64,000 nucleotides of DNA, taken from assembly GCA_027493875.1 (NCBI GenBank), contig JAOSJX010000006.1, positions 45,248-109,247 on the forward strand. The letters are read 5' to 3'. Within the stretch, counting starts at the first letter, position 1. Every line of letters starts with the position of its first letter. A program made the position numbers and the translations under genes. The notes below the pieces were generated by a model. That model made no database searches, was not told the DNA's origin, and saw nothing but the letters and a program-made list of their open reading frames with translations. This DNA is from Deltaproteobacteria bacterium. GTDB lineage: Bacteria; Lernaellota; Lernaellaia; JACKCT01. Below are positions 10,596 to 53,179 of this stretch, one piece after another.

Positions 10596-10628
10596 GAAAA
10601 CGATTGTGCCCCCGGCCTTGTTCCTTGC

Positions 10629-12747
10629 TCATGGTTTCCTTCCAAACAGGGACCGAATGGGGTCCTTCGACTCTTGTTCGCGCTGCTTTTCGAGCGCCGA
10701 CGTCAGATAGTGCACTTGGCGGCGCGCCTCGTCGTTTTTCGGATCCTTCTCCATAATCGACTGATAGACCTTGATCGCCGCTTCGGTCTTTCCTTGGTGC
10801 CGGTACACCTCGCCGAGCCATTCGCGATACGTCACGTTGTCCTGATCCAAACGAATGGCCTTATTCAATTTGGCGACGGCGTCGTCCAACGAAAAACGCG
10901 GGTTCGCGATCAACCGGTAAATGCCGTAGCCGGCGCGGGCATGGTATTCGGCCACCGCGGGGTCGAGCGTGGCGGCGCGGTCGAAGGCGTCCGCGGCGGT
11001 CCCGAGTCGCTCCTTCTCCGTGGCGATCAATCCTTTTGGAAGACCGCCTCCGCGTCCATTTTTCGCTTGCGGGCCTGCGCGTCCGGATCGTTCGAATCGG
11101 GCGCCGGCGGGCCCCCGGCCTGACGTGTGTACCGGCGCCGCGTAAGCGGGTCGGAGAGCGTGTCCCACGCTTCGTCAATTTTGCGCACGATCGCCTGAGC
11201 GCGCCGGCGAACGCCCGGCGGCGCGCCGGCCGGCAGCGCGTCGGGCGCGAATTCCGCCTTCGCTTTCTGGTAGGCCTTTTCAATTTCCTTTTTGGTCGCA
11301 TCGGGCGCGACGCCGAGCAGTTCGTAGTAGGTCGTCTCGCCCAGCGACGCGGCAACGCGCTCGAGGTTTTCAAAGGCGCCCGTTTCGGGCGGCGCGTCGG
11401 ACGACGGCGGCGCCTCGGGCTTGACGGCCGGCACGCTCGCCCGTTCCTCGGCCGCCTCGGCCAGACGGCACAGACCGGCCGCGACCAAGCCGTAGATCAC
11501 GCGAACCGTATCCATCAGTCCCAGCGCCGACCGCGCGACGACGTCGCCGAACGCGTGGCGGCCGTCAAGCGACACCGCCAGTGTCTTTTCCTCGGGGGTC
11601 ATCTCCGGCGCCGGCAGCAACGGATTTTTACTCGGCACGGGATGAAGATTCTTATGCCGGACAAACGACGCGTCGATCAATTCGGCCCTGTAGTAACGGC
11701 GGTATCCTTCCATGATCGCGCGGTACAGACCGGCTTCAAAAGTTGGCGTATTCTCCGGATAACGCACGTCCGGGCTCAACCGGTACGTCCCTTCCTTCCA
11801 CGCGAACAGGCTCGCTATTTTCGTCGCCGTCTGCGCGCACAAATAGCGCGTCAGCTCGCCCGCCGGAACGATGCCGCGGCTGATGAGCAAGGTGCCGACC
11901 TTCTGGCCCGTTTCCGCGCTTTCCTCGATCACGGCGCGGTACTGTTCCTCCGTGATCCGCCCGGAGGTCATGAGCAGGCGGCCGAGCGCCTCCTCGCGAA
12001 TATTCGATTGCACGAAGACGGGCTGCCCCTCGATGAAATAGACCTGCTTACTCCCCGGCGCGCCGTCCGCGCGCAACGCCCCGGAAAACCGTTGCTCGGC
12101 CAACGCCAGAAACAGCCCTGCGAGACTGGCCGGGCGGAAAATACCTTCCTCCGCGGGCCGCACCGTGCGCATCGCGGGGCCGGGCCGGTCAGGATCGTCG
12201 TCCGCAACCGCGGCCGGCGGCGGAGACTCCGCCGGCGGTTCGGGTTTCGGGGGTTCTTCCTTGGACCGGTCCGGCCAAATCGATTCGACGCGTTTTTTTC
12301 GGGCGCGGGCGCGATCTTGGCCTCGGGGGCCGCCGCTTCCTCCACTGCCTCCGCGACGGCGGGATCGCCCGCGCCGATGAGATCGATCAGAATCCGCGAT
12401 AAATCCGTGGCGTCAAACGGCTTTTGGAGGAACGCGTCGGCTTTGTGCTTTGTCGTGGCGGCGGTCCGGATCGCGCGGCTTTGCTGGAGCTTGGACGTCA
12501 CGACCACTTTGGCCCAATCCGGCGCTTGTTCCTTGACCAGTTTGGCCACCGCGAGGCCGCCGATGCCCGGCAGCAGAATCTCGACCATGACCAGATCGTG
12601 GTGCTTTTCGCGAAACGCCGCGAGCGCCTCGTCCGCGGAGGCGGCGGTGTCCACGCTGTAACCCATCTGCCGCAACAGCACGCCGAGATCCCGGCGTTCG
12701 GCCTCGTCGACCTCGACCAACAAAATCGATTTGGGCGAGGAGGCCAC
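10629..12747 (-). CDS. multidomain signalling protein: atypical REC – PATAN/DUF4388 – MshEN-like – J-like domain lacking HPD – C-terminal TPR; two apparent homopolymer frameshifts
   Basis: The REC (MASSPKSILLVEVDEAERRDL…VMVEILLPGIGG, ORF 11968..12747) joins across a 7-nt t-run at 12292-12298 to the linker and DUF4388/MshEN/J-like part (TYYELLGVAPDATKKEIEKAYQKAKAEFAPD, ORF 11027..12172). This joins across an a/t4 run near 11033-11036 to a TPR tail (ORF 10629..11168). The GTG start at 12747 has a GGGAGGGGG SD and abuts the stop of the upstream gene at 12748. Confidence 0.6.
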
Positions 12748-15019: not shown

Positions 15020-15029
15020 GGCGAAAATC

Positions 15030-16584: not shown

Positions 16585-16681
16585 AAGATACTCCCGCCGC
16601 GTTGCGTGTGATGCCTGCTAAGACGGCAAAAATAGTGGGTAAATCGACGCGTCGTCAAGCGAACGCCCGGCGGGGGCACCA

Positions 16682-19618
16682 CCGATAAAGCTCAACACCC
16701 GCAGCCGCCGCAACCGCCGTGGAATTGTTCCCGCCGCTGACGCTGCCGTCCTCGTCGTCGTCGTCCGGTGTGATCGGATCGGCCGCGCTGTCGTCGTCAT
16801 CCGCGTCGTCGTCGGGCGGAAAAAATGTCGTCGTCGCCGGCCGAATCGTCGTCCGACGTGTCGTCGTCGCCCGTATCGTCGTCCGCCGGAATCGTGGTGG
16901 TCGTCGTCGACGTCGTCGAGACCGTTGTGGTGGACGAACTGGTCGTCGGCGGAACGGTTGTGGAGGACGTTGTCGTTGTGGTCGAGGAACTGCTTGTCGT
17001 CGTCGAGCTTGATGACGTCGTGGTCGTCGAAGACGACGTCGTCGTGGAGGACGAGGACGTGGTCGTCGTACTCGATGAGGTCGTCGTGGTCGATGAGCTT
17101 GAAGTCGTGGTCGTGGAGGAGCTCGTCGTGGTGGTCGAGCTGGAAGATGTGGTCGTGGTCGAACTGGACGTTGTCGTTGTGGTCGAGGAACTGCTTGTCG
17201 TCGTCGAGCTTGATGACGTCGTGGTCGTCGAAGACGACGTCGTCGTGGAGGACGAGGACGTGGTCGTCGTACTCGATGAGGTCGTCGTGGTCGATGAGCT
17301 TGAAGTCGTGGTCGTGGAGGAGCTCGTCGTGGTGGTCGAGCTGGAAGATGTGGTCGTGGTCGAACTGGACGTTGTCGTCGTAGAGGAACTGCTGGTCGTC
17401 GTTGTACTCGACGACGTGGTGGTCGTCGACGAACTCGTTGTCGTCGTCGACGAACTTGTGGTCGTCGTGGAACTGGAGGTTGTTGTCGTTGACGAGGACG
17501 TGGTCGTGGTCGACGAACTCGTTGTTGTTGTCGATGACGACGTCGTGGTGGTCGACGAACTCGTTGTCGTCGTCGACGAACTTGTGGTCGTTGTGGAACT
17601 GGAAGTCGTGGTCGTCGACGAGGACGTGGTTGTGGTCGACGAGCTTGTGGTGGTTGTGGAGGAACTCGTGGTCGTGGTTGAAGACGACGTCGTGGTGGTG
17701 GAAGAGGAGCTCGTCGTCGTTGAGGAACTGCTTGTCGTTGTCGTTGAGCTGGACGTCGTCGTCGTGGAGGACGACGTGGTGGTCGTCGACGAGCTTGTGG
17801 TGGTTGTGGAACTGGATGATGTGGTCGTGGTTGACGACGAACTCGTGGTCGTCGAAGAACTGCTTGTCGTCGTTGAAGAACTCGAGGTGGTTGTGCTGCT
17901 CGACGTCGTCGTGGTGGACGAGGTCGTGGTCGTGGAAGAACTCGATGTGGTCGTTGTGGTGGAGGTCGTGGTCGTCGTCGTGACGACCGGATCACCCGGA
18001 ATCTCGCCCCACCACGTCGCCCAGCGGTCCCACCCGCCGCCGGGCGTCGCCGCGTATTCCTGAATCGTCCAGAACGTCGTGTCGTCTTCCGGGTCCACGA
18101 CGGTGTTGCTGTAATCGCCCCAGCGATTCCGTGTGCCGCTGTAGATTTTGTAATAAGGCGCTTCCCCGGCCTTGAGCACCGTATCGTCGCGCAAGACGCC
18201 CGCGGCATCCGTATCGTAGCGGAACGAATAGTTGCCGCCGGCGTACTGCGTTTCGGAAAACCGCGAGTAACCGATGACCGCGTTGTTGTATTGGTTCACC
18301 GCCATGCTGGGATACGCGTAAAACAAGTTTGCCGTGCCGTCGTCGATCCGGCCCTCTTGAACGCGCGAGATGGTCGACGGATTGATTTCCCACCATTGAA
18401 TGGACGACCGCGTCGGCGAGAAGGACGGCAGGAAGATCGTGTGCGTCGCCCAAAGGCTCCCGTTCCGGTAGACCAGCGTCTGCATCCGGTGATCGTTGGT
18501 CGTGATGCCTTGCACGGAATCGAGCTGCGGCGCGAAATCGTTTCCGGCGCTGCCGGCCCAGGTCCCAAGGGCGCTGCCGATCGCTCCCATGTACGAAATC
18601 GACTCCGAACCGATGGCGCCGGTGATTTGATAGAGACGGACTTCCCCGACAGCGAGCGCAGCACGTAGATCCGGTCGAGGGACGCGTCGAAGGTCTGCGC
18701 GGGGACCATGGTGAACTGCGGGTAGTCGATCCGCGTGTAGTCGACGGCGCCGCCGGCGTAGAGATCGGCCTTGTCGAAAACGAACAGGTACGTGGTCGAA
18801 TACGCATTCCCGCTGATGGTGAACATGTTCACCGAGACGACGACCCAGTCCTTGTTGTAGCCGAAGCTCGGATAATCGACCCACAGCGTGTTCCCCGAAT
18901 CCCCGTCGAGGAAGTAGAGATACCAGGTTCCCGTCGGGTCATCCGTCGCCGACGCGCCGATGAGCACGCCCGAGGTCGACGACGCGGCGTTCGCGCACGC
19001 GGTGAAAATCCACCGGCCCGACAGCTGGTCATAGAGCACCTTCGGATCGAACGCGTCGGCGCCGAGGGAACTCCAGAACACATCCAACGTCACCGTCCCG
19101 AGATTCGTTCCGGTCTTGCTCTGGATGCGCACCTGCGAATTGAGCACGGTCATCAGGTGATCGGGGCCGGCGGCGCCGTGCGTGTCCGGGGGAATCGTCG
19201 TGTTGTTGTCGAGCAGCGCCTGGAAGCTCGACGTGGGCGAAGGGCCGGGTACCAAGGGCGGAGGTCCGGCTTTTTCCGGCCCGCCGCGCTCCGGAAGCGG
19301 CGCGGCATCGTCATTCAAATAGTAATCGACCCACGGCGCCTCGCCTTCGTAGATCGGCGGGCCGACCGCCGCTTCCTGCATGACGAGATCGGAAAAATCG
19401 ACGACCGCGCTCGCGCGGATCTCGAGACGGGTTCCGGGGACCGGGCCGTCTTCCTCGATTTCGTCAAGGTTGACGCCGCCGCCGTCGGGATCATGCTCGA
19501 CGGTGATGTCGTCCGCGGACTCTTCCGCCGGTCCGTCATCCAACGAAGGATCACAGGCCGCGCCGGCCAAAACGACCAGCGCGCACAGAACGAAGAAAAT
19601 AGGATGACGAAGTTTCAC
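16682..19618 (-). CDS. giant secreted lipoprotein with a mucin-like Thr/Ser repeat region (~330 aa of TTTTSSS repeats) and an Asp-rich C-terminal tail ending …GGCGGCGC*; at least three apparent frameshifts
   Basis: Lipoprotein signal MKLRHPIFFVLCALVVLAGAAC at 19618. The globular domain runs across ORF 18296..19618 then ORF 16797..18884, joined at a g4 run near 18640. The T/S repeats are at ~16940-17990. The tail …IPADDDTGDDDTSDDDSAGDDDIF then continues, after an a6 run near 16810-16815, as PPDDDADDDDSAADPITPDDDDEDGSVSGG. A further 1-nt shift gives HGGCGGCGC with a TGA at 16682-16684. Confidence 0.6.
16940..17990 (-). repeat. tandem coding repeats (Thr/Ser-rich, ACG/TCG codon arrays) including exact ~200-bp tandem duplications (17001-17200 ≈ 17201-17400)
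   Basis: Long arrays of gtcgtcgtc/gaggacgac-type units, with whole blocks repeated verbatim. All three minus-strand frames stay open across it, producing artefactual Pro/Arg-rich ORFs; the plus-strand frames produce Val/Glu/Asp-rich ORFs. Confidence 0.8.
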
Positions 19619-19665: not shown

Positions 19666-20268
19666 CTAAAAAAGCAGTCCCAGACGGACCAACCCCGCGT
19701 AGAAAGAATACACGTCGACCTTATTGTCGACGTCCGCGCCGGTGGCGAATTCCATGTCCGTCCAGGTCACCGACGCGCGGCCCGCCAACCCGAGGGTGAC
19801 GCCGCCGGACACGTAAAAGTCCAGCCCGAGTTGCGCCAGGCCGCCGAAACCGTGCGAGTCCAGCGAATCCTCGTCCGTTCCCGATCCTGCGGGATACCGG
19901 GCCTCGTAGGACGTCCAGGCGAAAAACGGCGCCAACGTCAAATACGGCGATACGTGCCGGCCGGGAAGGCTCAAGCGCGGGCCAAGCGAGACGACGCCGT
20001 GCGTAAGTTGAAGCTGGCCGTATTTGTCCTTGTCCGATTGCTCGTGCTCCGAATAGAGCACATCCCATTCCAAGCCGACGTAGTCCGTCGCCCCGTAGCC
20101 CATGCCGGCGCCGAACGCGAAGTCCGCTTGAAAAAGCTCGCCGAGCTTGCCGTCGAGCACCACGCCGCCGCCCTGAACGAAAAACAGCGCATCACCCCGC
20201 TCCAGAGCGTACGAGGGGGCGGCGGAAAAAGCGATGAACAGAAAAATAATCGCCGTGATACGTCGCAT
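19666..20268 (-). CDS. outer-membrane beta-barrel protein (OmpW/OmpA-like small porin family), signal peptide
   Basis: MRRITAIIFLFIAFSAAPSYA signal, alternating amphipathic strands and a C-terminal …YAGLVRLGLLF* ending in Phe. Confidence 0.6.
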   Translation of the reverse strand: MRRITAIIFLFIAFSAAPSYALERGDALFFVQGGGVVLDGKLGELFQADFAFGAGMGYGATDYVGLEWDVLYSEHEQSDKDKYGQLQLTHGVVSLGPRLSLPGRHVSPYLTLAPFFAWTSYEARYPAGSGTDEDSLDSHGFGGLAQLGLDFYVSGGVTLGLAGRASVTWTDMEFATGADVDNKVDVYSFYAGLVRLGLLF

Positions 20269-20279
20269 GGGCACCGACG

Positions 20280-20904
20280 CTAGAAGCGCAATTCCAGACG
20301 CCCCGTGATCGCGAGATCGTTCAGCGCCGTGGTGAAAATCTTTTGTACGAAAATATACTCGTAACGCACGCGCGCGCCGAGGAGAATCCGGTCGAGGGCG
20401 CGGCTCTTTTCGGCCTCCCAGAGCGTGTAATCGACGCCGCTGCCGAGGTTGACCATCACGTCCTGTTCCCAAAGTTTGTTCACCGTGGACTCGGGCTCGT
20501 ATTTGAGCGCGGCCAGCCCGAAGCCGCCGGAGATATACGGCAGGAAACGGCGGCCCGAGAAAAAGTACCCCCATGTTGCCGCACCAGGTGTCCATGGTGA
20601 GGTTGAAGACTTCGACGTCGCCGGTGTCCAGGTCGGTTTTTTCGCCGTGGCTTCGGCTGTGGAGATAATTGATCTCGAAACTGACGTTCCGCGCCCATTC
20701 GAAATCGACGATCTGCGTGAAGGTGGCGCCGTAGGCCGCGGCGGGGTTGACGCGGATTTCCTTTGCCGTTTCCTCGTAGGCGAAAAGCCAGCGTCCGCCG
20801 CCCTCGACGGCGGGCATGGCCTTGAAATCCTTCGCCGGCGCGCGGGCCGGCAGGCCGAGCGCCAAGGCCGCGAACATTACGATCGCAAGCCTTCTCCTGG
20901 CCAC
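20280..20904 (-). CDS. outer-membrane beta-barrel protein (paralog); apparent frameshift at c5 run ~20569-20573
   Basis: The signal MARRRLAIVMFAALALGLPARAPA and …FNLTMDTWCGNMG (ORF 19666..20904 frame) continue in ORF 20280..20483 (…NKLWEQDVMVNLGSGVDYTLWEAEKSRALDRILLGARVRYEYIF…LELRF*). Confidence 0.55.
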
Positions 20905-27046: not shown

Positions 27047-27682
27047 TTGGACCAACGGCTCGTCATCGGCACTTACGATCTCGACGAGGATCTGATCGCG
27101 CGCGTGCGGACGACGCGCGAACCGGCGCAGCGCGTCGCGGCGGTGGCGTCGCGCATGGTCGTGCTCGGGCGCGGAAGCAAGCCGGAGATGGAACTGCGCG
27201 TCGACAACTGCCTTGCCGACGGCGTTCCGGTTCTCCGCCGCGGCGGCGGATGCGCGGTCTTCCTCGACGAGGGCAATATCGTCGTGTCCGTCGTTCTCCC
27301 GGTCACAGGCATCGCGGGAAACGACCGCTACTTTTGCGACATCACGAAATGGCTGACGGCGGGACTATCGGAGATCGGCGTCCCCGGCGTCCGCCCGGCG
27401 GGCGTCTCCGACCTCGCCCTCGGCGACCGCAAGGTCGGCGGCGCGTGCATCCACCGCTCGAAGGACGTTTTGTATTACTCGACGACGCTGCTTATCTCGC
27501 CCGACGTGGACGCGATGGAACGCTACCTCGCGCAGCCGCCCAAGGAGCCCGACTACCGCCGCGGACGCGCGCATCGCGAATTCGTCGGCCGACTATCTCT
27601 TCCGCGTTCGATGGAAAATACCGAGGGACTTGCCGAGGCGTTACGCGCGGCGCTCAAATTTCCGATCGCATTCGGGAGCTAA
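27047..27682 (+). CDS. biotin/lipoate A/B protein ligase family protein (LplA/LipB-like catalytic domain)
   Basis: BPL/LPL catalytic-domain-like sequence VLGRGSKPEMELRVDNCLADGVPVLRRGGGCAVFLDEGNIVVSVVL. Convergent with the giant gene, with a 4-nt end overlap. Confidence 0.6.
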   Translation: MDQRLVIGTYDLDEDLIARVRTTREPAQRVAAVASRMVVLGRGSKPEMELRVDNCLADGVPVLRRGGGCAVFLDEGNIVVSVVLPVTGIAGNDRYFCDITKWLTAGLSEIGVPGVRPAGVSDLALGDRKVGGACIHRSKDVLYYSTTLLISPDVDAMERYLAQPPKEPDYRRGRAHREFVGRLSLPRSMENTEGLAEALRAALKFPIAFGS

Positions 27683-30600
27683 CACCCGCAACAACCCGCG
27701 TCGCCGTCATCGTCGTCGTCATCGCCGTCCTCTTCCCACGGGTCGCGGTGGCGGTCCGGCTCTTCGTCGTCGTCAGGTTCCGCGGCGGAGGCGGCGACCC
27801 ACTCGTCTTCCTCGTTCTGGCCGAATTCGGGAAGATCCCAATCGTCGTCCCATTTATCAAAGGTATCGTCGTCCCCGCCGGCGGTGTCGTCGTCATCGTC
27901 ATCGCCGAGGATCTGGTCGCACGTATCCTGAAGGTCGTTGCATTCCGTTCCGGGGTCGCAAGGGTCGCCGCCCGAAACGCAGGCCGCCTGACCCTCGACG
28001 CAAAACTCCGGTCCGTTGCAAAACACGCCGTCGTCCGCGCACGGGTTGCCCGATTGCAGGCAGCTTTGCGTTCCCTCGTCGCAACTCTCGACGCCGTTGC
28101 AGAACACCCCGTCGTCCGCGCACGGCACGTCCAACGGCACGCATTCGTTCTGCGTCTCGTCGCAGCTTTCCTCACCGTTGCAGAACAAGCCGTCGTCCGG
28201 ACACGGATCGCCCGACGAAACGCACATCTGCGCGTCCTCGTCGCAAGACTCGTCCCCATTGCAAAACACGCCGTCGTCGCCGCACGGATCGCCGGTGGAC
28301 AAACACGCGTCCCCGCCTTCGTCGCAGAACTCGTCGCCGTTGCAGAACACGCCGTCGTCCTCGCACGGATCGCCGGACGAAACGCACTCGCGCCCGCCCT
28401 CGTCGCACGATTCGACGCCGTTGCAAAACGCTCCGTCGTCGAAGCAGGGATCGCCGGTGGAAACGCACCCGTCGATATTGTCGTCGCAAATTTCGTCGCC
28501 GTTGCAGAACAGCCCGTCGTCGCTGCACGGATTCCCGGTGTGATCGCAAACGTCCTGCGCTTCGTTGCACGATTCGCCGCCGTTGCAGAACAGTCCGTCG
28601 TCGCCGCACGGCGGGCCGACGTGAAGGCACGCGTCCAGATTGTCGTCGCACGTCTCGCCGCCGTTGCAGAACAATCCGTCGTCCACGCACGGATTGCCCG
28701 ACGATTCGCAGGCGCTCTGCGCCTCGTTGCACGATTCGGTGCCGTTGCAAAACGCGCCGTCGTCGCCGCACGGATCGCCCGAATGCACGCACTGGTCGAT
28801 CTGGTCGTTGCAGATTTCGTTGCCGTTGCAAAACACGCCGTCGTCCAGGCAGGGGTTTCCGGCGTGCGTGCAAACGTTGCCCGCTTCGTCGCAGGTTTCC
28901 ACGCCGTTGCAGAACGCGCCGTCGTCGGGGCACGGATTGCCCGCGGAGGAGCATTGATCCAGCGTATCGTCGCAAAGCTCCGGCCCGTTGCAGAACACGC
29001 CGTCGTCGGCGCACGGATCTCCCGTCGTCACGCATTGGTCCGTGGTTTCGTTGCACGATTCCGCGCCGTTGCAGAAAAGTCCGTCGTCCGGGCACGGATC
29101 GCCCGCGTGCATGGAGCACGCCCCCGCCTGGCAGGCGTCGTCGCCGTTGCAGAAAACGCCGTCATCGCACGAGGCGCCGTTGTTGTCGGACCACGCCTGA
29201 TCGTCGATCCCCGGGTCGCAGAACAGGCAGCCGTTCACCGGGTTGGGATCGCCGTTGGCGTAACACACGCCGCCGATGAAACATCCGCCGGGGCACGCGG
29301 TGCGGATGTGCACGCCGGAAGGCTGCTCGGGCAGGCCGCCCACGTACCACGGCGACCCGGTCGCGTACGGCGTGGTGGCCGGCGAATACAGAAGCCGCGC
29401 CCGCCATCGCCACGTTCCCGGCCCGGGCTGCTGCGCCGTCGCCGTCATGGTGCCGGTGGTGCCGGCCGCGCCGCTGTCCGACCACGCCGCGAGCACGCCG
29501 TGATCCCACTCGTCGAACGCCTCGTCGAACGGCGCGACTTCCCACTCGATCCCGACCTTGCCGCGCCCGAACGGCGTTTTCTTGGGCGCCTTGATGCGGA
29601 ACGCGTCCGGCGACTCGGACGACGTGTACGGGCTCACGCGGCGGTCCACGTCGAGGCGGATCGGCACCGCGCGCCGCGTCAGGCCGCCTTCGTTGCCGTA
29701 GTAGATAAGCACGCGGCCCTCGTCCGTCTGGTCGTTGTTGAAATGCGGCGCGCCGACGATGACGTCGTCGAAGCCGTCGCTGTTCACGTCCGCCGCCGCG
29801 ACGCTCGCGCCGAGGTTCATATCCTGCTGCCCGCCCGAAACGGTCCACGCCGCGGCCGCGCTCGGCGCGGTCGCCGTGCCGAGATAGAGAAACGCCTGGC
29901 CTTCGTAGGTCAGCGTATTCGTGCGCAGATTGGCGCCGACGACCATATCGGCGTACCCGTCGCCGTTCACGTCGCCCGCCGTTCCGACACTGACGCCGTA
30001 GTTGCACAGATTCTGATTGCCTTCGCCCGTCCACGCCGCCGCGCTCTGCGGGCCGGACACGGTGCCGTAGTACAGCCGCGCGACGCCTTCCTTGAATTGG
30101 TCGCCGTTATACCGCGGCGCGCCGACGATGATGTCCGCGAAGCCGTCGCCGTTCACGTCACCCGCCGTCGCCACGGACGTACCGAAACGCGCGTCGGCGT
30201 TGTCGCTCTCTTTGCTCCACGCGGGCGCCGCGAGCGGGCCGGCCGACGTGCCGAGATAGACATGCGCGATGCCTTCATTGGTTTGCCCGTTCGTATAGTC
30301 CGGTGCGCCGACGATGATGTCGCTGAACCCGTCGCCGTTGACGTCGCCCGCGCCGCCGACCGACCAGCCGTACGCCGCGCCGACGGAATTGCCCTGGCCG
30401 GTCCACACCGGCGCGGCGGTGAGCCCCGTCGCCATCCCGAGATAAACAAACGCGGCGCCCTCGCCGTCTTCCCCCGCGTCATAGCCGTAGGCCCCGACGA
30501 TCACGTCGGTGTGGCCGTCGCCGTTGATGTCCCCGGCGCCCGCGACGCTGTACCCGAACCACGCGTTGTCCTGGTTCGACTCCGCCGTCCACGCCGCCGT

Positions 30601-33065
30601 CGTCTTCAGGCCCGTCGACGAACCGCGGTAGAGAAACGCGCGGCCCTCGTTGTTTTGGCCGGAATCGTAGAAGTTGGCGCCGAGGATGACGTCGTCGTAG
30701 CCGTCCGCATCCACGTCGCCCGCGCCGGCCACGCTGACGCCGAAGGCCGCGTTCGGCTGATTCGCCTCCGCGCTCCACACCGGCGACGCGATCGGCCCGT
30801 TGGGGCCGCCGTGAAACGCGAACGCGCGGCCCTCGTTGACTTCATCGGCATCGAAACCGCGCGCGCCCACGATGATGTCGGCGTAGCCGTCCCCCGTTGA
30901 CGTCGCCAGCGTTCGCCACGACGAGTCCGAATTCGGAGCCGCTCTGATTGCTTTCGATCACCGTCCCCGCCGCGGCCGCCAAGCCGCGGCCCGCGCCGTG
31001 GTACACGAAAGCGCGGCCCTCGTCGGCGAAGGAGCCGTCGTAGTCCGGAGCGCCCACCGCGATGTCGGCGAAGCCGTCGCCGTTCACGTCACCCGCGGCC
31101 ATCACGCTCATCCCGAAGTGCGCGTTGTTCTGGCCGCCGGTGCCGGACCACACGGGCGTCGTGGACGGGCCGGGTTTTCCGCCGAGATAAAGACGCGCCG
31201 ACCCCTCCGCGGACGTTCCGCCGAACGGCGCGCCGACCAGAAAGTCCGCGTAACCGTCGCCGTTCACGTCACCGGCCGGCGCGACGCTCGTGCCGAAGGC
31301 CACGCCCGCGAGATCGCTCTCGACGTTCCACCACGCCGTGGCGGACACGCCGAACGCCGATCCGAAAAACACCGCCGCGCGGCCTTCGCCCGCCTGCCCA
31401 TTCGAATAGCCGGGCGCGCCGGCGATCAGATCCGCGTAGCCGTCGCCGTTCGTATCCCCGGCCCCCGCGATGCCCGCGCCGAAAAATTCGCCCGTGAGCG
31501 TGCCGTCCTTGATCCACGAGGACGACCCGGAAAGTCCGGAGCTCGAACCGTGGTAAACGTACGCGCGTCCCGAATCCTGCACCGACAAATCAAAGCCGGG
31601 CGCGCCGACGGCCACGTCGCCGTAGCCGTCGCCGTTCACGTCACCCGCGGCGTCGAGCGCGTAGCCGAACATGGCGCCGGTCTGCGTGCCCTGGACGGCC
31701 CACGACGGCGAGGCCGCCGGCCCCGCGGAGCTTCCGTAGAACGCGTGCGCGAGGCCGCGGTCGGCCGACGCCCCATCGTAAAGCTCCGCGCCGACGAGCA
31801 CGTCCGCGTACCCGTCGCCGTTCACGTCTCCGGCCGACGCCACGGCCTGCCCATACGCCGAGTCCGGCTGGCCGCTCGCGTAGAACCAGAGGGGCGAGGC
31901 GCCGAGGCCGCCGGCCGACCCCGCGAAGACGTACGCGGCGCCTTCCGCCGTTTGCGTATCGGAGGCGCCCGGCGCGCCGACGATCAGATCGCCGAAATCG
32001 TCGCCGTTGACGTCGCCCGCCGCGGACACCGCCGCGGCGAACGCCATGTCCTGTTGGTCGCCCCGGGCCTCCCAGTCGGCGGTCACCGACAGCCCGGCGG
32101 CGCTTCCGTGAAAAACGAAAACCGCGCCCTCGCCGCCGAGACCGTTGTCGAAACCGGGCGCGCCGACGGCGAGATCGGCGAAGCCGTCGCCGTTCACGTC
32201 GCCCGCGGTCGACACCGAGGCGCCGAGACCCGCCGAGGCCGACGGCCCCGACGCCTGCCACGACGCCGGCGATGAAATCACCGGGTCGATGGTGACCGGA
32301 TAAATCGCGCCGTCATCCTGCACGACGATTCGCAACGAACCGTCCCATTCGAGACGCGCCGGCAGCGGCCGGCCGCCCGCGTCCCACGCGAAAGCGCCGC
32401 CGACGCGTAGCACCGCGCGCGCGGCATCGAAGAATTCCACGGCGCCGCCGCCGGCATCCTCCACGCCGTCGAGATCTCCCGCCGCCAGCACCTCGACCGT
32501 CAGCGGACCGATTCCGCCGGGCGCGGCCGGAACGACGTAGCCGAACTCGATCCCCTCGGGCCCGTTGTCGAACCATTCCGTGACGCCGCCGCGGGCGATT
32601 TCGACAACGCGCGGACAATCCTCGGCCATCCGAACCATGGCCGAGCAGCCGCCGAACGCGGGCGCCCCGGAGGGCAGGCCGGCGCGCGATCCGTCCCGTC
32701 CCACCGACACCGGCCGCAACATCATGCGCCAATCGCCGCGGCCCTCGCGGTCTTCAAGCTCGAGCGTCCCGTCCACCAACGCGCCGCGCAGGCTCCTGCG
32801 CCCGGTTGACGATGGAAAAACCTCCATCCCCGTCCGGACGGATGCGGTACTCCTCGGCCCGGATATAATCCAGGGCTTGTTCGGCCCACGACGCCACCGT
32901 CGGCCCGTCCGCGGCGTCGAATCCCGCGGCGGATTCCTCCGCCGCGGCCGAATCGGTGTCGGTAGGCCCGCCGTCGTCCGCGTTTTCGCACGCGACGAAC
33001 GGATAAACGGCCGCCGACAACAAAACGGCGATCGCCACAAGGCTGATATTTCGGTAAAAACGCAT
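27679..33065 (-). CDS. giant (~1800 aa) secreted lipoprotein: >14 FG-GAP (integrin-alpha beta-propeller) repeats, ~20 Myxococcus cysteine-rich repeats, acidic tail ending …DDDDDDGDAGCCGC*; at least two apparent frameshifts
   Basis: N-terminus with lipobox LLSAAVYPFVAC (ORF 32754..33065). FG-GAP units AGDVNGDGxADxxVGAP recur through ORF 30842..33040 and 27679..30870, joined at a c5 run ~30892-30896 (…AGDVNGDGYADIIVGARGFD). ~20 repeats of CxDDGxFCNGxExC(D/N). Tail DDDDDDTAGGDDDTFDKWDDDWD…EEDGDDDDDDGDAGCCGC*. Confidence 0.7.
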
Positions 33066-34992: not shown

Positions 34993-35115
34993 TCCAGGAC
35001 GGATCGCGATCGGTCAGAAGAAAATTTTAACGCGGCGGAAAATTCGCGGGCGCGGGGCCGATAACAAAAACCCCGGGCGGACCCGGGGTTTTTGCTTCGA
35101 ATTGTTCTGTTTTCG

Positions 35116-41039: not shown

Positions 41040-41041
41040 CG

Positions 41042-41931: not shown

Positions 41932-41953
41932 CGGCCGCCCCCCCGTGCCCGCG

Positions 41954-45642: not shown

Positions 45643-47682
45643 ATGCGCCGAATGATTTTGACGATCCTGATCGCCTGCGTCGCCGTGGCCGGTTTTGTCC
45701 CCGCCGCGAGCGCCGACGAAGCGATTCAACTCAAAACGCGATCCTTCACGCCGCCGGCCTCCGCCGACGTCGCCGCGGATATCGCCAAGCTGGTGGGCCG
45801 GCACGGCGTCATTCAAATGAACGAAACGCCGGATGCCGGAAAGCGCGCCGCGCTCGCGGAAAAAGGCGTTCACTTGCTCAAGGCTCTGCCCGGCCGCGCC
45901 TACCTCGCCTTCATCGAGGAAGGCGCGCGCGTCGAGAAAAGCACCGCCGCGGCCTTTCGTTGGGCCGGCGAATTGAACCGCGCGGACAAAACGCACCCCC
46001 TGCTCGCGCAAGGCAAGTTTGTCATCGATCCCGAAGACGACGCGGGGCGCCGCGTGATGGATATTCTGATGTTCCCCGACGTGACCGAGGAAACCGGCCG
46101 CCGTATCCTCGAAAACGCCGGCTCCGAAATTCTCGGTCGCATCGCCACCGTCAACGGATTCACCGCCGCCCTCAATCCCTCCGCCGTGCCCGCGCTCGCG
46201 GAGGAAGACGCGGTGCTGTGGATCGCGGAGACGGAACCGGCCTATGAACCCTTCTTGGACGTCGGCAAGCCGGCCGTCGGCGGCGACGAGGCCAATGCGG
46301 CGCCTTACTTCACCACCGGCAAGGACGTCGGCGTTCTCGTGCTCGACGGCGGCACCGTCTTCGGCCACAAGGATCTCGAAGGCCGCCTGACACAGATCGA
46401 CGTGCCCATCCCCGACTTTTCCGGCCACGCGCACCACGTGTCGTGCATCGTCGCGGGGGACGGCACCATGTCCGGCGGGCAATACACCGGCATGGCGCCG
46501 GACGCGTCCATCGTGTCCGCCTCCACCACCGGGCTCGGCATCCCGCCGCTCTACAGCAACGCCGGCAACATGGAGCGCGTCTACGAAAACGCGATTCAAA
46601 ACCACAACGCCACCGTGTCCAACAACTCGATCGGCGCCAACCTCGCGCGTCTCGGGGCGAGCGCGTGCGTTTACGAGGGGGACTATTCCGTCACCGCGCA
46701 GGTGGTCGACACCATCGTCGGCGAGGAGTACGGCCGTATCCACATCGTCTGGTCCGCCGGCAACGAGCGCGGCTACGTCACGTGCGGCACGGCGTACAAC
46801 ACCAGCGCCCCGCCGGCCACGGCCAAAAACTCCATCGGCGTCGGCGCGCTCAACAAGGAAGACCTGTCGATGACGTCGTTTTCAAGCTGGGGCCCGACGG
46901 ACGACGGACGCATCCGCCCCGACGTCAGCGCGCCGGGTTGCGATCACGATTTCAACGGCATTCGCAGTTGCTGGTTGGCCGACCGTTACACGGACTTCTG
47001 CGGAACCAGTCAATCCGGACCCATCGTCGCCGGGTCGGTCGCGCTCGCGCAGGAATACTGGCGGCGCACGGTCCGCGAGGAAGACGCCTGGGCCTCCACG
47101 ATGAAGGCCCTTGTCATTCATAGCGCCATCGACCAGGGCGAACCGGGCCCGAACTACCGCGACGGCTTCGGCGCGCTCGACGTGCCGTCGCTGCTCGATC
47201 ACATCGACGGCGCCATGATCCTCGAAGAAGAACTGGATCAGGGCGACGCGTTCACGCTCGATCTTTATCCGTTCACGAACGACGTGAAGGTCACGCTCGT
47301 GTGGACCGATCCCGCCGCCACGGCGCTCGCCGCCACCGCGCTGATCAACGACCTGGATCTTTCCGTCATCACCGGCGACGGCACGGAGTTGCCTTGGATT
47401 CTCAATCCCTCCTCCCCCGCCACGCCCGCGACGAAGGGAGAAAACCACCGCGACCCGGTCGAGCAGGTGCAGTTTGATTCCTCGGGCGTGGACGGACCCG
47501 TTTCGGTCGTGGTCGAGGGAGCGAACGTTCCCGAGGGCCCGCAGCGGTTCTCCCTCGTCATCACCGGTCTTCAGGAGGAGGCTCCGGACGGCGGCGCGGA
47601 GGATGACGATGCGGATGATGATGCGACGGATGATGATGCGGGGGACGACGATGACGACGACGGCGGCGGATGCGGTTGCTGA
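45643..47682 (+). CDS. secreted subtilisin-like serine protease (peptidase S8) with C-terminal Asp-rich tail ending …DDDDDDGGGCGC*
   Basis: Signal MRRMILTILIACVAVAGFVPAASA; catalytic D (VLVLDGG), H (HGTHVSCIVAG) and S (GTSQSGPIVAG). Confidence 0.85.
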   Translation: MRRMILTILIACVAVAGFVPAASADEAIQLKTRSFTPPASADVAADIAKLVGRHGVIQMNETPDAGKRAALAEKGVHLLKALPGRAYLAFIEEGARVEKSTAAAFRWAGELNRADKTHPLLAQGKFVIDPEDDAGRRVMDILMFPDVTEETGRRILENAGSEILGRIATVNGFTAALNPSAVPALAEEDAVLWIAETEPAYEPFLDVGKPAVGGDEANAAPYFTTGKDVGVLVLDGGTVFGHKDLEGRLTQIDVPIPDFSGHAHHVSCIVAGDGTMSGGQYTGMAPDASIVSASTTGLGIPPLYSNAGNMERVYENAIQNHNATVSNNSIGANLARLGASACVYEGDYSVTAQVVDTIVGEEYGRIHIVWSAGNERGYVTCGTAYNTSAPPATAKNSIGVGALNKEDLSMTSFSSWGPTDDGRIRPDVSAPGCDHDFNGIRSCWLADRYTDFCGTSQSGPIVAGSVALAQEYWRRTVREEDAWASTMKALVIHSAIDQGEPGPNYRDGFGALDVPSLLDHIDGAMILEEELDQGDAFTLDLYPFTNDVKVTLVWTDPAATALAATALINDLDLSVITGDGTELPWILNPSSPATPATKGENHRDPVEQVQFDSSGVDGPVSVVVEGANVPEGPQRFSLVITGLQEEAPDGGAEDDDADDDATDDDAGDDDDDDGGGCGC

Positions 47683-51858: not shown

Positions 51859-53179
51859 TCAGGTGAGGTACGTTACGAGCCGGCGAACATGGCTTCGACA
51901 GAAGTCCTTGGCGTCGAAGGCGCGCAGATCGTCGATTTTCTCGCCGATGCCGATAAACCGGATGGGGACCTTCAGTTCATTGCTGATCCCCACGATGCAT
52001 CCGCCTTTCGCCGTGCCGTCGAGCTTCGTCATGATGATGCCCGAAAGGTCGATCGCTTCGTTGAAGGTCTTGGCTTGCTGAATCGCGTTCTGGCCCGTCG
52101 TCGCGTCGAGCACGAGCACGGTCTCGTGCGGCGCCTCTGGAACGATCTTCGCCATCACACGTTTCGTCTTCTTGAGCTCTTCCATCAGGTTCGACTTGGT
52201 GTGCAGCCGTCCCGCCGTATCCACGAGCACGACGTCCGCGCCGCGCGATTTCGCCGCCTGCACCGCGTCGTAGGCCACGGCGGACGGATCGGCCCCGGCG
52301 TCCTGTTTGATGATCTCGCAGCCGACGCGCCCGGCCCACACCTCGAGCTGCTCGATGGCGGCGGCGCGGAATGTATCGCCCGCGGCGAGCAGAACTTTTT
52401 TTTCCGTCCGCGGCGTACTTCGCGGCGATCTTGCCGATCGTCGTCGTCTTGCCGACGCCGTTAACACCGACGACCATAATGACGAACGGCTTGGCGCCGC
52501 TGACTTCCAGCGGGATCGCCTCGGTCTGCAGGATGCCGCCGATGAGTTCCTTGAGCACGTCGCGCAGACCGGCCGGGTCCTCGATGCCGCGCTCCGATAC
52601 GATCTCTCGCGCCTGGTCGAGAAGATCGGTCGCCGTTTGCACGCCGATGTCCGCGGTGATGAGCGCCTCTTCGAGATCGTCGTAGAGATCCTGATCGATC
52701 GCCGAACGGCCGGTGAGAATTTGATCGATCTTCCCGACGAGTCCCGCGCTCGTTTTGGCAAGCCCCGCCTTGAGCCGTCCAAACCAGGAAACCTTGGGTT
52801 CCGGCGCGGGAGCCGGCTCGGGTTCCGGCTCGGGTTCGGGCTCAGGGGCGGCTTCGGGTTCCTCCGCCTCGGCTTCGAGCATCGCCTCGATATCGGCGTC
52901 CGCGAGCGCTTCACCGTCTTCTTCAGGTTCTTCTTCGGACTCCGCGGTGACCGCCTCTTCACGCGCGGAGAGCTTTTCCACAAGCTCCCGGGTTTTACGC
53001 CGGCGCGACAGAAGCAACAACATCCACAACAAGAGCAACAGCGCCACCAACAAAAGCGGCACGCTCTTCGTCGCCAATGGCAAGCCGGTGCTTTCCAGCA
53101 ACAAATTGAGATTGTGGTGAGCCGGACCCCAGTATTTGTCCAAAAGCTCGCCGATCACCGGAATGTCGGACCAAAACAT
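51859..53179 (-). CDS. ftsY: signal recognition particle receptor FtsY; apparent frameshift at t8/a8 run ~52394-52402
   Basis: Membrane-anchored acidic A domain, then the NG domain [23 protein letters not shown] (G1) continuing as [17 protein letters not shown]…LDTAGRLH…[13 protein letters not shown]. Confidence 0.85.

What the first reader, a model, noticed from the sequence alone, without database searches (positions are those of the whole stretch)
16682..16830. Asp-rich + GGCGGCGC C-terminus, copy 3 (mucin-like giant), reached only after two homopolymer frame corrections
The tail DDDIF | PPDDDADDDDSAADPITPDDDDEDGSVSGG | …HGGCGGCGC* spans three frames, switching at an a6 run ~16810-16815 and again ~16700-16715. 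The final frame ends TGA 16682-16684 with the same CxxC/CGC end as the other two proteins. This supports both the motif and the indel-error interpretation.
Basis: partly seen in the sequence, partly recalled or inferred. Interest (0 to 1): 0.55.

Follow-up and report, generated by a model that had tools for sequence, protein, structure and literature searches.

The report
Asp-rich GCGC protein tail, frameshifted
The end of a secreted-protein gene, chopped up by single-base assembly errors, really encodes a long poly-aspartate tail finishing in Gly-Cys-Gly-Cys; this ending is a lineage-specific tag on many secreted proteins and looks like a known bacterial surface-sorting signal (MYXO-CTERM) with its membrane segment missing.

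Summary
The tail uses two frames (A, B, A), not three.

Three single-base fixes give one 975-codon ORF (19618 to 16692, minus strand). The fixes are +1 at the G4 run 18644-18647, -1 at the T6 run, and +1 somewhere in 16713-16735. The ORF reads: signal peptide, sialidase-like beta-propeller, 363-residue Thr/Ser linker, acidic tract, ...HGGCGGCGC*.

Assembly indel error is strongly supported. ftsY, an FG-GAP gene and an OMP gene in the window also break at homopolymers.

The ending is real. G[GC]CGC* occurs three times in the six-frame translation, against about 0.005 expected. A DNA pattern for polyAsp + G[GC]CGC + stop found 63 such ends, concentrated in nine related MAGs. Twelve of 14 orthologues of the window's S8 peptidase also end in GCGC*.

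No TM helix or Arg cluster follows the cysteines, and no Pfam or NCBIfam model hits the tail. GCGC is nevertheless the MYXO-CTERM signature. One S8 homologue carries polyAsp-GGCGGC followed by a TM helix and a basic cluster.

Best reading: a TM-less variant of Cys-containing C-terminal sorting or anchoring tags. The function is inferred, not shown.

The parts
16692..19618 (-). One gene. After three single-base corrections it is a 975-codon ORF: signal peptide, beta-propeller, Thr/Ser linker, acidic tract, GGCGGCGC-COOH.
   Evidence: Reconstruction (2928 nt, only the terminal stop). ORF 18296..19618 is NCBI MCZ7583380.1.
19550..19618 (-). N-terminal signal peptide VKLRHPIFFVLCALVVLAGAAC. It could be cleaved by signal peptidase I or be a lipobox; this was not resolved.
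   Evidence: Read directly from the sequence.
17991..19231 (-). Globular domain of a widespread uncharacterised secreted family. The predicted fold is a beta-propeller with weak sialidase-like matches.
   Evidence: 540 homologues at about 45-60% identity. tblastn frames. AlphaFold model of family member P0023: pLDDT 78.5, pTM 0.82. Foldseek against PDB gives sialidase and other propeller hits at TM 0.35-0.5. No Pfam or NCBIfam hit.
18644..18647 (-). Frameshift site 1: a G4 run that needs one more G. This gives ...IYVLRSLSGEVRLYQITGAIGSE...
   Evidence: Homologue HSPs change frame between 18653 and 18647. Sequence. Fix.
16893..17981 (-). Thr/Ser linker ('mucin-like'): 363 residues, 99% Thr or Ser, with a 201-bp higher-order repeat.
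   Evidence: Relatives L065, L074, L040, L021 and L037 also place Thr/Ser runs before the acidic tail.
16748..16886 (-). Acidic tract: ADDDTGDDDTSDDDSAGDDDIF / PPDDDADDDDSAADPITPDDDDED. It crosses frameshift site 2.
   Evidence: Matches ...DDDDWFPDDDADDDA... in L074 and ...DDDTWFPDDDADDDS... in L065.
16820..16825 (-). Frameshift site 2: a T6 run (A6 on the plus strand) with one base too many. T5 gives DDDIFPPDDDA. Alternatively T8 (two bases missing) gives DDDIFFPPDDDA.
   Evidence: The uncorrected frame ends SARRRRG* at 16797-16799, which is the typical out-of-frame reading of GAC repeats.
16713..16735 (-). Interval that must hold frameshift site 3 (one base missing). The G3 run 16730-16732 is one candidate; the exact site is unknown.
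   Evidence: Frame arithmetic. There is no long homopolymer here.
16692..16721 (-). Terminal motif HGGCGGCGC (16721 down to 16695) and its TGA stop (16692-16694).
47557..47682 (+). Copy 1 of the tail. It closes the intact S8 peptidase gene: ...DDDADDDATDDDAGDDDDDDGGGCGC* (TGA).
   Evidence: (MCZ7583411.1).
27679..27975 (-). Copy 2 of the tail. It closes the FG-GAP/Cys-repeat gene: ...DDDDDDGDAGCCGC* (TAG).
30891..30895 (-). G5 run with one base too many. It splits the copy-2 gene into ORFs 30842..33040 and 27679..30957.
   Evidence: Both ORFs carry FG-GAP repeats. Removing one G restores ...AGDVNGDGYADIIVGA....

Best explanation
**Shown.** The region 16692-16840 is the true 3' end of one gene (19618 to 16692, minus strand). 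The assembly breaks this gene with three single-base indels.

Once repaired, the gene encodes about 975 residues in this order:
- a Sec signal peptide;
- a sialidase-like beta-propeller of an uncharacterised secreted family;
- a 363-residue Thr/Ser linker;
- an acidic tract of about 45 residues;
- the terminal sequence ...HGGCGGCGC, followed directly by TGA.

This is the third example in the window of a lineage-specific protein end: polyAsp, then Gly-(Gly/Cys)-Cys-Gly-Cys-COOH. The end is found on many Sec-exported enzymes and adhesins of a group of related MAGs. These MAGs are labelled 'Deltaproteobacteria bacterium'. A related Asp-rich ...ECCG* end occurs on a Candidatus Alcyoniella australis (Lernaellota) protein.

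**Inferred.** The tail is a C-terminal sorting or anchoring tag, related to or derived from the Cys-containing tripartite signals of the MYXO-CTERM type. The MYXO-CTERM signature is GCGC. Here the gene stops where myxosortase is proposed to cut, so no TM helix or Arg cluster is made.

The most likely mechanism has three steps:
1. Sec export and removal of the N-terminal signal peptide.
2. Modification of a terminal cysteine thiol, most likely by a lipid, which ties the C-terminus to a membrane.
3. The polyAsp tract (and the Thr/Ser linker where present) acts as an extended spacer. It may also act as an acidic surface-export cue, mirroring the lineage's N-terminal lipoproteins that read lipobox-Cys-Gly-polyAsp.

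**Sub-confidences.** Gene structure and assembly error, about 0.9. Membership of the tail class, about 0.85. Sorting or anchoring function, about 0.45. Lipidation specifically, about 0.3. The overall figure given (0.6) is a blend of these.
For: **Structure and assembly errors**
- Three fixes give an uninterrupted 975-codon ORF.
- Homologue alignments change frame at the G4 run 18644-18647.
- ftsY breaks at an A8 run.
- The FG-GAP gene breaks at a G5 run, and one deletion restores the repeat consensus.
- An OMP gene breaks at a G5/T5 run.

**Tail class**
- G[GC]CGC* occurs 3 times in the six-frame translation of the window, against about 0.005 expected.
- The pattern scan of 185,579 species genomes gave 75 loci. 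Sixty-two are real tails (63 in all), concentrated in nine MAGs. The other 13 are short out-of-frame matches scattered over unrelated taxa.
- Across 70 tails, position -3 is Cys in 70, -2 is Gly in 69, -1 is Cys in 68 and -5 is Gly in 60. Positions -7 to -10 are Asp in 61 to 68 of 70. All three stop codons are used. The median acidic tract is about 55 residues.
- Unselected Asp-rich tails in the same loci end in GCGC or GCCGC in 12 of 15 cases.
- Twelve of 14 orthologues of the S8 peptidase end in GCGC*.
- L074, L065 and L054 share the [WI]FP(P)DDD[AS] element with the corrected target.

**Secretion**
- A crude hydrophobic-run heuristic finds a Sec-type signal peptide in 41 of 50 complete tail ORFs.

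**Link to sorting signals**
- MYXO-CTERM has a 'GCGC motif' followed by a TM helix and an Arg cluster. The proposed pathway is Cys lipidation, then cleavage distal to the Cys (bioRxiv 10.1101/2023.06.07.544157; PMC11980579).
- S8 homologue P0137 ends polyAsp-GGCGGC + spacer + TM helix + RNRPR. It scores 18.1 bits on TIGR03901, whose cut-off is 20.
- P0136, 46% identical to P0137, and Ca. Alcyoniella P0141 end polyAsp-xCCG* with no TM helix.
- Homologues of the target's propeller carry recognised sorting modules at the same position: JDVT-CTERM in P0014 and T9SS sorting domains.

**Mirror argument**
- Twenty lipoprotein-like N-termini read 'Cys-(G/S)-polyAsp' in the window and loci. None of them also has the C-terminal tail.
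- In Bacteroidota, acidic residues just after the lipidated Cys form a surface-export signal; the B. fragilis consensus is SDDDD (PMC5080379).
Against: - There are no reads and no close orthologue. The best hit to the propeller is 60% identical and has a different C-terminus. The propeller has no hit in the related loci.
- The position of the second shift, and so 3-5 residues of the tail, is undetermined.
- The target is atypical for the class. About 13 non-acidic residues (GSVSGG...H) and an extra CGG separate the last Asp from the final GCGC. In relatives the Asp run abuts G-G/C-C-G-C. Further undetected errors are possible.
- Nothing shows that the cysteines are modified.
- With no TM segment, it is unclear how a membrane enzyme would engage the C-terminus.
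- No CPBP/myxosortase gene and no other recurrent candidate enzyme was found. I looked in the parts of the window I scanned and next to tail genes in the related loci.
- The only Lgt in the window is the ordinary housekeeping gene next to ispH.
- Assigning the window's own MAG to Lernaellota is indirect. It rests on MAG names, on one named homologue at 37% identity, and on ispH-lgt synteny at 68% nucleotide identity with L027.
Confidence: 0.6

Rival explanations
1. The frame breaks are real: the gene is a pseudogene or uses programmed frameshifting. The product would end ...DDDIFSARRRRG, or be truncated even earlier at the G4 break.
For: The sequence as deposited has the breaks. NCBI annotated the 440-residue N-terminal fragment as a protein. 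No reads were available.
Against: - Homopolymer-associated breaks of both signs also hit ftsY (essential), an FG-GAP gene and an OMP gene within 64 kb.
- Three breaks in 3 kb, each restoring homology or the family tail when repaired, is the signature of consensus error.
- ARRRRG is simply GAC repeats read out of frame.
- The T6 context is not an X XXY YYZ slippery site.
Confidence: 0.06
2. Only the T6 correction is right. The protein stays in frame B and ends ...DDDDEDGSVSGGNNSTAVAAAAGVELYRWCPRRAFA* (stop at 16655-16657). The GGCGGCGC* in the other frame is a coincidence of GC-rich triplets.
For: - It needs one correction fewer.
- The DNA GGCGGTTGCGGCGGCTGCGGGTGT is simple GC-rich sequence that reads plausibly in two frames.
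- The interval has no long homopolymer.
- The target's spacing between Asp and Cys is atypical.
Against: - G[GC]CGC* is expected about 0.005 times per window and appears exactly here, 9 codons after the acidic tract.
- All of the roughly 80 acidic tails seen in relatives end in a Cys motif (GCGC-type, or rarely CCG-type). None ends in an Ala-rich or RWCPRRAFA sequence.
- The frame-B end has only a hydrophobic stretch of about 9 residues, so it is not a tripartite signal either.
Confidence: 0.08
3. The tail class is real but works as a metal, Ca2+ or mineral-binding appendage. PolyAsp would chelate divalent cations or coat mineral surfaces, and the terminal Cys-Gly-Cys would bind soft metals. 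It would not be a sorting or anchoring tag.
For: - The composition alone fits: a median of about 55 acidic residues plus two or three thiols.
- No TM segment and no candidate processing enzyme was found.
- From general knowledge, polyAsp binds Ca2+ and mineral surfaces.
Against: - The same polyAsp tracts follow N-terminal lipobox cysteines and link domains, so they behave as general spacers.
- Homologue P0137 has the same polyAsp-GGCGGC followed by a TM helix and a basic cluster, with a near-threshold MYXO-CTERM match.
- The tail sits where homologues carry recognised sorting domains.
- The tail and the N-terminal lipobox-polyAsp form are mutually exclusive in this sample, 0 of 20.
Confidence: 0.15
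4. The terminal cysteines form intermolecular disulfides. These would tether the proteins to a Cys-bearing envelope partner or polymerise them, as in mucins, rather than carry a lipid.
For: - The target has a mucin-like Thr/Ser linker plus terminal Cys residues.
- Two or three cysteines are conserved at the extreme end.
- Such a mechanism needs no membrane enzyme and no TM segment.
Against: - There is no direct evidence.
- Published Lernaellota MAGs are most abundant in anoxic water (PMC9324843), where stable extracellular disulfides are less expected.
- The resemblance to MYXO-CTERM points to lipidation.
Confidence: 0.15

Closest known systems
MYXO-CTERM sorting signal (NCBIfam TIGR03901), processed by myxosortase MrtX (CPBP/Rce1-like intramembrane protease) in Myxococcota
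   Same: - It sits at the C-terminus of Sec-exported surface proteins and is present on dozens of proteins per genome.
- Its signature is a Gly/Cys motif, often GCGC, with an invariant Cys, and it follows a disordered linker.
- In the proposed pathway the mature protein ends at the modified Cys.
- A homologue of the window's S8 peptidase (P0137) carries polyAsp-GGCGGC followed by a TM helix and a basic cluster. It scores just under the TIGR03901 cut-off.
   Different: - The window's tails stop right after the last Cys. There is no TM helix, no Arg cluster and nothing for an intramembrane protease to remove.
- TIGR03901 does not hit the tails.
- A long polyAsp tract is an integral part of the tail.
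- The lineage is not Myxococcota.
- No myxosortase-like gene was seen in the parts scanned.
Other Cys-containing tripartite C-terminal signals: JDVT-CTERM (NF033191), Synerg-CTERM (TIGR04564), CGP-CTERM
   Same: - Each has an invariant Cys in a short Gly/Ser-rich signature at the C-terminus of exported proteins (abstract of 10.1101/2023.06.07.544157).
- JDVT-CTERM is present on P0014, a homologue of the target's propeller domain.
   Different: All are tripartite (signature, TM helix, Arg cluster). The window's tail has only the signature.
Bacteroidota lipoprotein export signal (LES): acidic residues just after the lipidated +1 Cys
   Same: An acidic run next to a (putatively) lipid-bearing Cys. 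The B. fragilis consensus is C-SDDDD (PMC5080379). The window lineage has N-terminal C-G-polyAsp lipoproteins and, as a mirror image, polyAsp-G-C-G-C-COOH tails.
   Different: - The LES is N-terminal, 4-5 residues long, and was tested experimentally in Bacteroidota.
- Here the acidic tracts are 12 to about 100 residues, the orientation is reversed, and nothing has been tested.
Eukaryotic Rab GTPase C-terminal CXC / CC geranylgeranylation motifs (from general knowledge)
   Same: A protein that ends in Cys-X-Cys with nothing after it and serves as a lipid-attachment site. This is a formal precedent for a lipid anchor on a terminal CXC without proteolysis.
   Different: Rab GTPases are cytosolic and are modified by RabGGTase with REP. 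The proteins here are Sec-exported bacterial enzymes and adhesins. There is no homology and no evidence of prenylation.

Membership tests
PolyAsp-G[G/C]CGC-COOH tail class (defined operationally here from the window and related MAGs) | Acidic (Asp-rich) low-complexity tract in the last ~12-100 residues | tested here: met
   ADDDTGDDDTSDDDSAGDDDIF/PPDDDADDDDSAADPITPDDDDED.
PolyAsp-G[G/C]CGC-COOH tail class (defined operationally here from the window and related MAGs) | Last five residues G-[G/C]-C-G-C, followed directly by a stop codon | tested here: met
   GGCGC + TGA at 16692-16706. It is reached only after the two frame corrections. The spacing from the last Asp is atypical: about 13 residues, against 0-3 in most members.
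PolyAsp-G[G/C]CGC-COOH tail class (defined operationally here from the window and related MAGs) | N-terminal Sec signal peptide on the same protein | tested here: met
   VKLRHPIFFVLCALVVLAGAAC at 19618. A heuristic finds one in 41 of 50 complete members.
PolyAsp-G[G/C]CGC-COOH tail class (defined operationally here from the window and related MAGs) | Host genome belongs to the lineage in which the tail is frequent | tested here: met
   Two intact copies lie in the same window. Orthologues of the window's S8 peptidase carry the tail. The window's ispH-lgt region is syntenic with L027.
MYXO-CTERM (TIGR03901) | Short Gly/Cys signature with an invariant Cys (often GCGC) | tested here: met
   GGCGGCGC.
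MYXO-CTERM (TIGR03901) | Hydrophobic transmembrane helix immediately after the signature | tested here: not met
   A stop codon follows the last Cys in all three window copies. The downstream in-frame sequence is not hydrophobic. No tripartite Cys signals were found in the window or loci.
MYXO-CTERM (TIGR03901) | Arg-rich cytoplasmic cluster at the extreme C-terminus | tested here: not met
   Absent.
MYXO-CTERM (TIGR03901) | Match to the NCBIfam model at or above its cut-off (20 bits) | tested here: not met
   No hit at E<=0.1 for the S8 protein, the FG-GAP protein or the reconstructed tail. Only the TM-bearing homologue P0137 comes close, at 18.1 bits.
MYXO-CTERM (TIGR03901) | Cognate CPBP-family myxosortase encoded in the genome | tested here: inconclusive
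   No PF02517 hit among the 50 window ORFs scanned against Pfam (plus 12). No recurrent neighbour family was found near tail genes in the related loci. The rest of the genome was not available.
Type I secretion / RTX-type acidic C-terminal substrates | No N-terminal signal peptide; Gly/Asp nonapeptide Ca2+-binding repeats; uncleaved C-terminal signal | tested here: not met
   Signal peptides are present. No RTX or HemolysinCabind Pfam hit on any of the tail proteins.
Rab-type CXC prenylation substrates | Cytosolic small GTPase domain presented by REP to RabGGTase | tested here: not met
   The proteins are Sec-exported peptidases, propellers and FG-GAP proteins.

The most novel reading that the evidence does not exclude
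PolyAsp-GCGC-COOH may be a previously undescribed, genetically 'pre-cleaved' C-terminal anchor. The ribosome would directly make the end that myxosortase produces in Myxococcota. A terminal cysteine would then be lipidated, or otherwise covalently attached, outside the cytoplasm. This would need no TM segment and no intramembrane protease, and the polyAsp tract would serve as both tether and surface-export cue. If so, this lineage isolates the still-unknown Cys-modifying step of the MYXO-CTERM pathway from the cleavage step. That would make the step directly searchable by phylogenetic profiling.
Probability: 0.3. Interest if true: 0.8.

Novelty: new variant of a known kind. Interest (0 to 1): 0.58.

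Why it matters
**For this locus.** The apparent ...SARRRRG* end and the three ORF fragments are assembly artefacts. The deposited annotation (a 440-residue 'hypothetical protein' plus further fragments) misdescribes a single surface protein of about 975 residues. The contig as a whole needs polishing.

**For biology.**
- The tail class marks a large set of secreted hydrolases and adhesins in a poorly known lineage (Lernaellota-like MAGs from sludge, sediments and lakes).
- It could define the surface proteome of that lineage.
- It carries the MYXO-CTERM signature without the TM helix and Arg cluster that every described Cys-type C-terminal sorting signal has.
- It therefore either reveals a new way to attach proteins by a terminal Cys-Gly-Cys, or gives a natural experiment on which parts of those signals are needed for modification and which for cleavage.
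- It is also a simple, searchable annotation rule: acidic tract + G[GC]CGC + stop.

Tried and rejected
- **Exact-sequence contig look-ups.** Look-ups for the N-terminal fragment and for the S8 peptidase found nothing. The source record and its reads could not be reached.
- **Close orthologue of the target.** None exists in the 5.8-billion-protein set; the best is 60% identical with a different C-terminus. tblastn of the propeller against the 75 related loci gave no hit. The frame corrections therefore rest on paralogous tails, not on an orthologue.
- **Domain libraries.** NCBIfam and Pfam give no model for the tail or for the propeller domain.
- **Literature.** Searches for the tail found only the MYXO-CTERM papers. 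Terms tried: Asp-rich C-terminal sorting, GCGC motif, poly-Asp lipoprotein, Lernaellota/FEN-1099. The Lernaellota description paper does not mention the tail.
- **GC3-based frame plot.** I tried this to count frameshifts across the window. It was too noisy in this GC-rich, repeat-rich sequence. I relied on individually verified breaks instead.
- **Neighbour clustering.** Clustering all ORFs next to tail genes in the related loci found no family recurring in more than three loci.
- **Read-through or recoding of the stop.** Rejected: all three stop codons are used, and the downstream sequence is neither conserved nor hydrophobic.
- **c-type haem site (CXXCH).** Rejected: no His follows the CXXC.
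- **Metagenome scan.** Not run. The protein search had already shown that no close relative of the target exists in those data.


Full report
**1. What is at the coordinates**

On the minus strand the gene's main frame reads ...TTTTTIPADDDTGDDDTSDDDSAGDDDIFSARRRRG*. I call this frame A; its codons start at positions that are 2 mod 3. Its TGA is at 16797-16799.

Frame B (1 mod 3) reads ...FFPPDDDADDDDSAADPITPDDDDEDGSVSGGNNSTAVAAAAGVELYRWCPRRAFA*.

The string HGGCGGCGC* lies at 16721-16692, again in frame A, 34 codons after the frame-A stop.

The two shifts have opposite sign. At the T6 run 16820-16825 (A6 on the plus strand) the assembly has one base too many. Somewhere in 16713-16735 it has one too few.

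The final TGA is at 16692-16694. The second interval has only G3, A2, T2 and C2 runs, so it is not an obvious homopolymer site.

**2. The gene as a whole**

- Upstream ORF 18296..19618 is NCBI MCZ7583380.1, 'hypothetical protein, Deltaproteobacteria bacterium', on a contig of 145,778 bp. It starts with a signal peptide.
- That ORF matches a large uncharacterised family, with 540 hits at about 45-60% identity.
- Homologue alignments leave this frame at about 18650 and continue in frame A from 18647.
- The junction is a G4 run (18644-18647). Adding one G gives ...IYVLRSLSGEVRLYQITGAIGSE..., collinear with the homologues.
- With all three repairs the locus is one ORF of 975 codons.

The ORF has five parts:

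| Part | Position or size |
|---|---|
| Signal peptide | starts at 19618 |
| Globular domain | to 17991 |
| Thr/Ser linker | 363 residues, 99% Thr/Ser, 17981-16893, 201-bp higher-order repeat |
| Acidic tract | follows the linker |
| Terminal motif | GGCGGCGC |

A model of family member P0023 (pLDDT 78.5, pTM 0.82) is a beta-propeller. Its PDB matches to sialidases and other propellers are weak, at TM 0.35-0.5. Pfam and NCBIfam have no model for the domain.

**3. Are the breaks assembly errors?**

Yes, very probably. Other genes in the window break at homopolymers:

- The FG-GAP protein that carries tail copy 2 is split into ORFs 30842..33040 and 27679..30957. Both hold FG-GAP repeats. Deleting one G from the G5 run at 30891-30895 restores the repeat consensus AGDVNGDGYADIIVGA.
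- The OMP gene upstream of the target leaves its frame at a G5/T5 pair near 20564-20572.
- ftsY, an essential gene, leaves its frame at an A8 run 52396-52403, in the middle of the GTPase domain...[19 protein letters not shown]|[17 protein letters not shown]....
- An M23 peptidase and a response-regulator/DUF4388/DnaJ gene also look split.

Insertions and deletions both occur, and each repair restores homology. That is the pattern of uncorrected homopolymer consensus error. It does not fit pseudogenisation or recoding.

**4. Is the Cys end more than chance?**

- The six-frame translation of the window has 2216 stops. Three are preceded by G[GC]CGC, against about 0.005 expected from shuffles.
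- Two of them close intact ORFs after acidic tracts: the S8 peptidase ...DDDDDDGGGCGC* (47682, TGA) and the FG-GAP protein ...DDDDDDGDAGCCGC* (27679, TAG).
- The third is the one under study.

**5. The tail is a lineage-specific class**

I scanned one genome per species (185,579 species) with the DNA pattern GACGACGAYGAY-N(0-30)-GGN-KGN-TGY-GGN-TGY-stop. It returned 75 loci.

- Thirteen are short out-of-frame matches scattered over unrelated taxa.
- Sixty-two loci (63 tails) are long ORFs ending polyAsp-G[GC]CGC*. They are concentrated in nine MAGs, with up to 14 hits per MAG under this narrow pattern. The nine include 'Deltaproteobacteria bacterium HK-STAS-FEN-2'.
- ORFs in those loci that the pattern did not select, but that have Asp-rich ends, also finish in GCGC or GCCGC in 12 of 15 cases. 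Two variants end in CCG-type motifs.

Across 70 tails:

| Position from the end | Residue | Count |
|---|---|---|
| -3 | Cys | 70/70 |
| -2 | Gly | 69/70 |
| -1 | Cys | 68/70 |
| -5 | Gly | 60/70 |
| -7 to -10 | Asp | 61 to 68 of 70 |

All three stop codons occur. The median acidic tract is about 55 residues, with a range of 12-102.

A second, independent route is the protein search with the window's S8 peptidase.
- Twelve of its 14 closest orthologues (46-52% identity, from ENA, JGI and NCBI metagenomes) end polyAsp-GCGC*.
- A more distant homologue from Candidatus Alcyoniella australis (phylum Lernaellota) ends ...DDDDDSECCG*.

The window is also syntenic over ispH-lgt with locus L027, from one of the nine MAGs, at 68% nucleotide identity.

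**6. Support for each frame correction**

*First correction.* Tails in L074 (...TTTTTTIPPDDDSDDDSGGDDDDWFPDDDADDDASPTDDD...GGCGC*), L065 and L054 contain an aromatic-Phe-Pro-DDD element inside the acidic tract. In L074 and L065 it follows a Thr/Ser linker. They line up with the corrected target ...TTTTTIPADDDTGDDDTSDDDSAGDDDIF-PPDDDADDDDS....

*Second correction.* This rests on the class rule that acidic tails end in a terminal Cys motif, and on the chance argument above. The frame-B alternative end (...AVAAAAGVELYRWCPRRAFA*) resembles nothing seen in about 80 relatives.

*Caveat.* The target has about 13 non-acidic residues and an extra CGG before the final GCGC, which is unusual for the class. 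The exact residues there are uncertain.

**7. What the tail probably does**

*Tail proteins are exported.* A crude heuristic finds a Sec-type signal peptide in 41 of 50 complete tail ORFs. Most look like signal peptidase I substrates. They include S8 and trypsin-like peptidases, FGE-sulfatase-like proteins, FG-GAP proteins and other propellers.

*Nothing follows the cysteines.* No TM helix or Arg cluster follows them. The tail is therefore not one of the described tripartite signals.

[quoted passage not shown] The working model is lipidation of the invariant Cys, then myxosortase cleavage distal to it, then T2SS-dependent surface display (PMC11980579).

*An evolutionary link is visible.*
- S8 homologue P0137 ends ...DDDDDDGGCGGC-ASVRGGPGHGLIPLGLLLLLASAYSITRVLLRNRPR. 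This scores 18.1 bits on TIGR03901, whose cut-off is 20.
- P0136, 46% identical to P0137, and the Alcyoniella protein end polyAsp-xCCG* with no TM helix.

*Position.* The tail sits where homologues of the target's propeller carry recognised sorting modules: JDVT-CTERM in P0014 and T9SS domains.

*Mirror image.* The lineage has many lipoprotein-like N-termini reading lipobox-Cys-(Gly/Ser)-polyAsp. I found 20 in the window and loci. None of the 20 also has the C-terminal tail. In Bacteroidota, acidic residues after the lipidated Cys are a proven surface-export signal, for example C-SDDDD (PMC5080379).

*Inference.* I infer that polyAsp-GCGC-COOH is a C-terminal anchoring or sorting tag, most likely through modification of a terminal Cys. 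PolyAsp would act as tether and perhaps as an export cue. None of this is shown. Metal or mineral binding and disulfide tethering remain live alternatives. No candidate enzyme was found near tail genes or in the scanned parts of the window.

**8. Comparison with known systems and novelty**

The tail fails the MYXO-CTERM membership test on three of its defining features: the TM helix, the Arg cluster and the model score. It meets the signature motif. It is therefore not a member, but it plausibly works like the processed product of one.

I found no description of this tail in the curated libraries or in the searchable literature.

I rate it a new variant of a known kind, the Cys-containing C-terminal sorting signals. 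The specific finding, copy 3, is a further and error-damaged member of that class. Its frame changes are artefacts.

**9. Verdict**

| Question | Verdict |
|---|---|
| Observation | Partly confirmed: the sequence is right, but the coordinates are off by 10, two frames are used rather than three, and there is a third break upstream |
| Interest | 0.58. The frameshifts themselves are mundane. The tail class is a surprising, testable lead for people who study bacterial surface-protein sorting. |

Noticed in passing
window 52396-52403 (minus strand), within ORFs 51859..53179: ftsY (SRP receptor, essential) leaves its frame at an A8 run in the middle of the GTPase domain. This is clear evidence that the contig carries uncorrected homopolymer indels.
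   Followed up: yes
window 27679-33040 (minus strand), break at 30891-30895: The FG-GAP/Cys-repeat protein that carries tail copy 2 is really a gene of about 1,800 residues, split by an extra G in a G5 run. The OMP gene 19666..20904 is likewise broken near 20564-20572 and runs into the next OMP gene.
   Followed up: yes
window 34330-36533 (minus strand) and 54023-55498 (plus strand); loci L003, L011, L017, L021, L028, L033, L049, L052, L054, L058 and others: There are many lipoprotein-like N-termini of the form lipobox-Cys-(Gly/Ser)-polyAsp. One reads VLSCGCGGDDDDDD, a mirror image of the C-terminal tail. None of the 20 found also has the GCGC tail.
   Followed up: partly
proteins P0137, P0136, P0141 (homologues of window 45643-47682): P0137 has polyAsp-GGCGGC followed by a TM helix and a basic cluster, with a near-threshold MYXO-CTERM hit. 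P0136 and the Ca. Alcyoniella australis protein end polyAsp-xCCG* with no TM helix. TM-bearing and TM-less forms therefore coexist within one protein family.
   Followed up: partly
homologues of the target's propeller domain (P0002-P0120): The family carries a range of C-terminal ends. Some are recognised sorting modules: JDVT-CTERM and T9SS type A. Two are short recurrent motifs with no annotation: ...KKRRGQxTS[QED]* and ...[YF]LPL[VI]I[RK]xx*.
   Followed up: no
window 47561-49411 (minus strand): A multi-pass membrane protein with PTPS_related/PMT_2 (GT-C glycosyltransferase-like) matches lies convergent with the tail-bearing S8 peptidase gene. It is a possible O-glycosyltransferase for the Thr/Ser linkers.
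   Followed up: no
window 59550-60035 (plus strand): An odd ORF with repeated CGEGSCGG/GEGKCGEGSCGG units flanking a (Asp-Lys)n run. Its function is unknown.
   Followed up: no
window 40293-42574 (minus strand): A chain of five overlapping same-strand ORFs. The first ends in an Asp-rich tract with no Cys motif (...DDDTGDDDS*). This is probably one gene with several more indel breaks.
   Followed up: no
window 8625-16108 (minus strand): Three paralogous genes combine a response-regulator receiver, DUF4388 and a DnaJ domain (one also has TPR). The middle one (11027..12747) appears split by a frameshift.
   Followed up: no
window 16893-17981 (minus strand): The Thr/Ser linker DNA has a 201-bp higher-order period at 95% identity. 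The copy number in a long-read consensus may itself be unreliable. Read in another frame, the same DNA gives a spurious high-GC3 'DHD...' ORF (16618..17991).
   Followed up: partly
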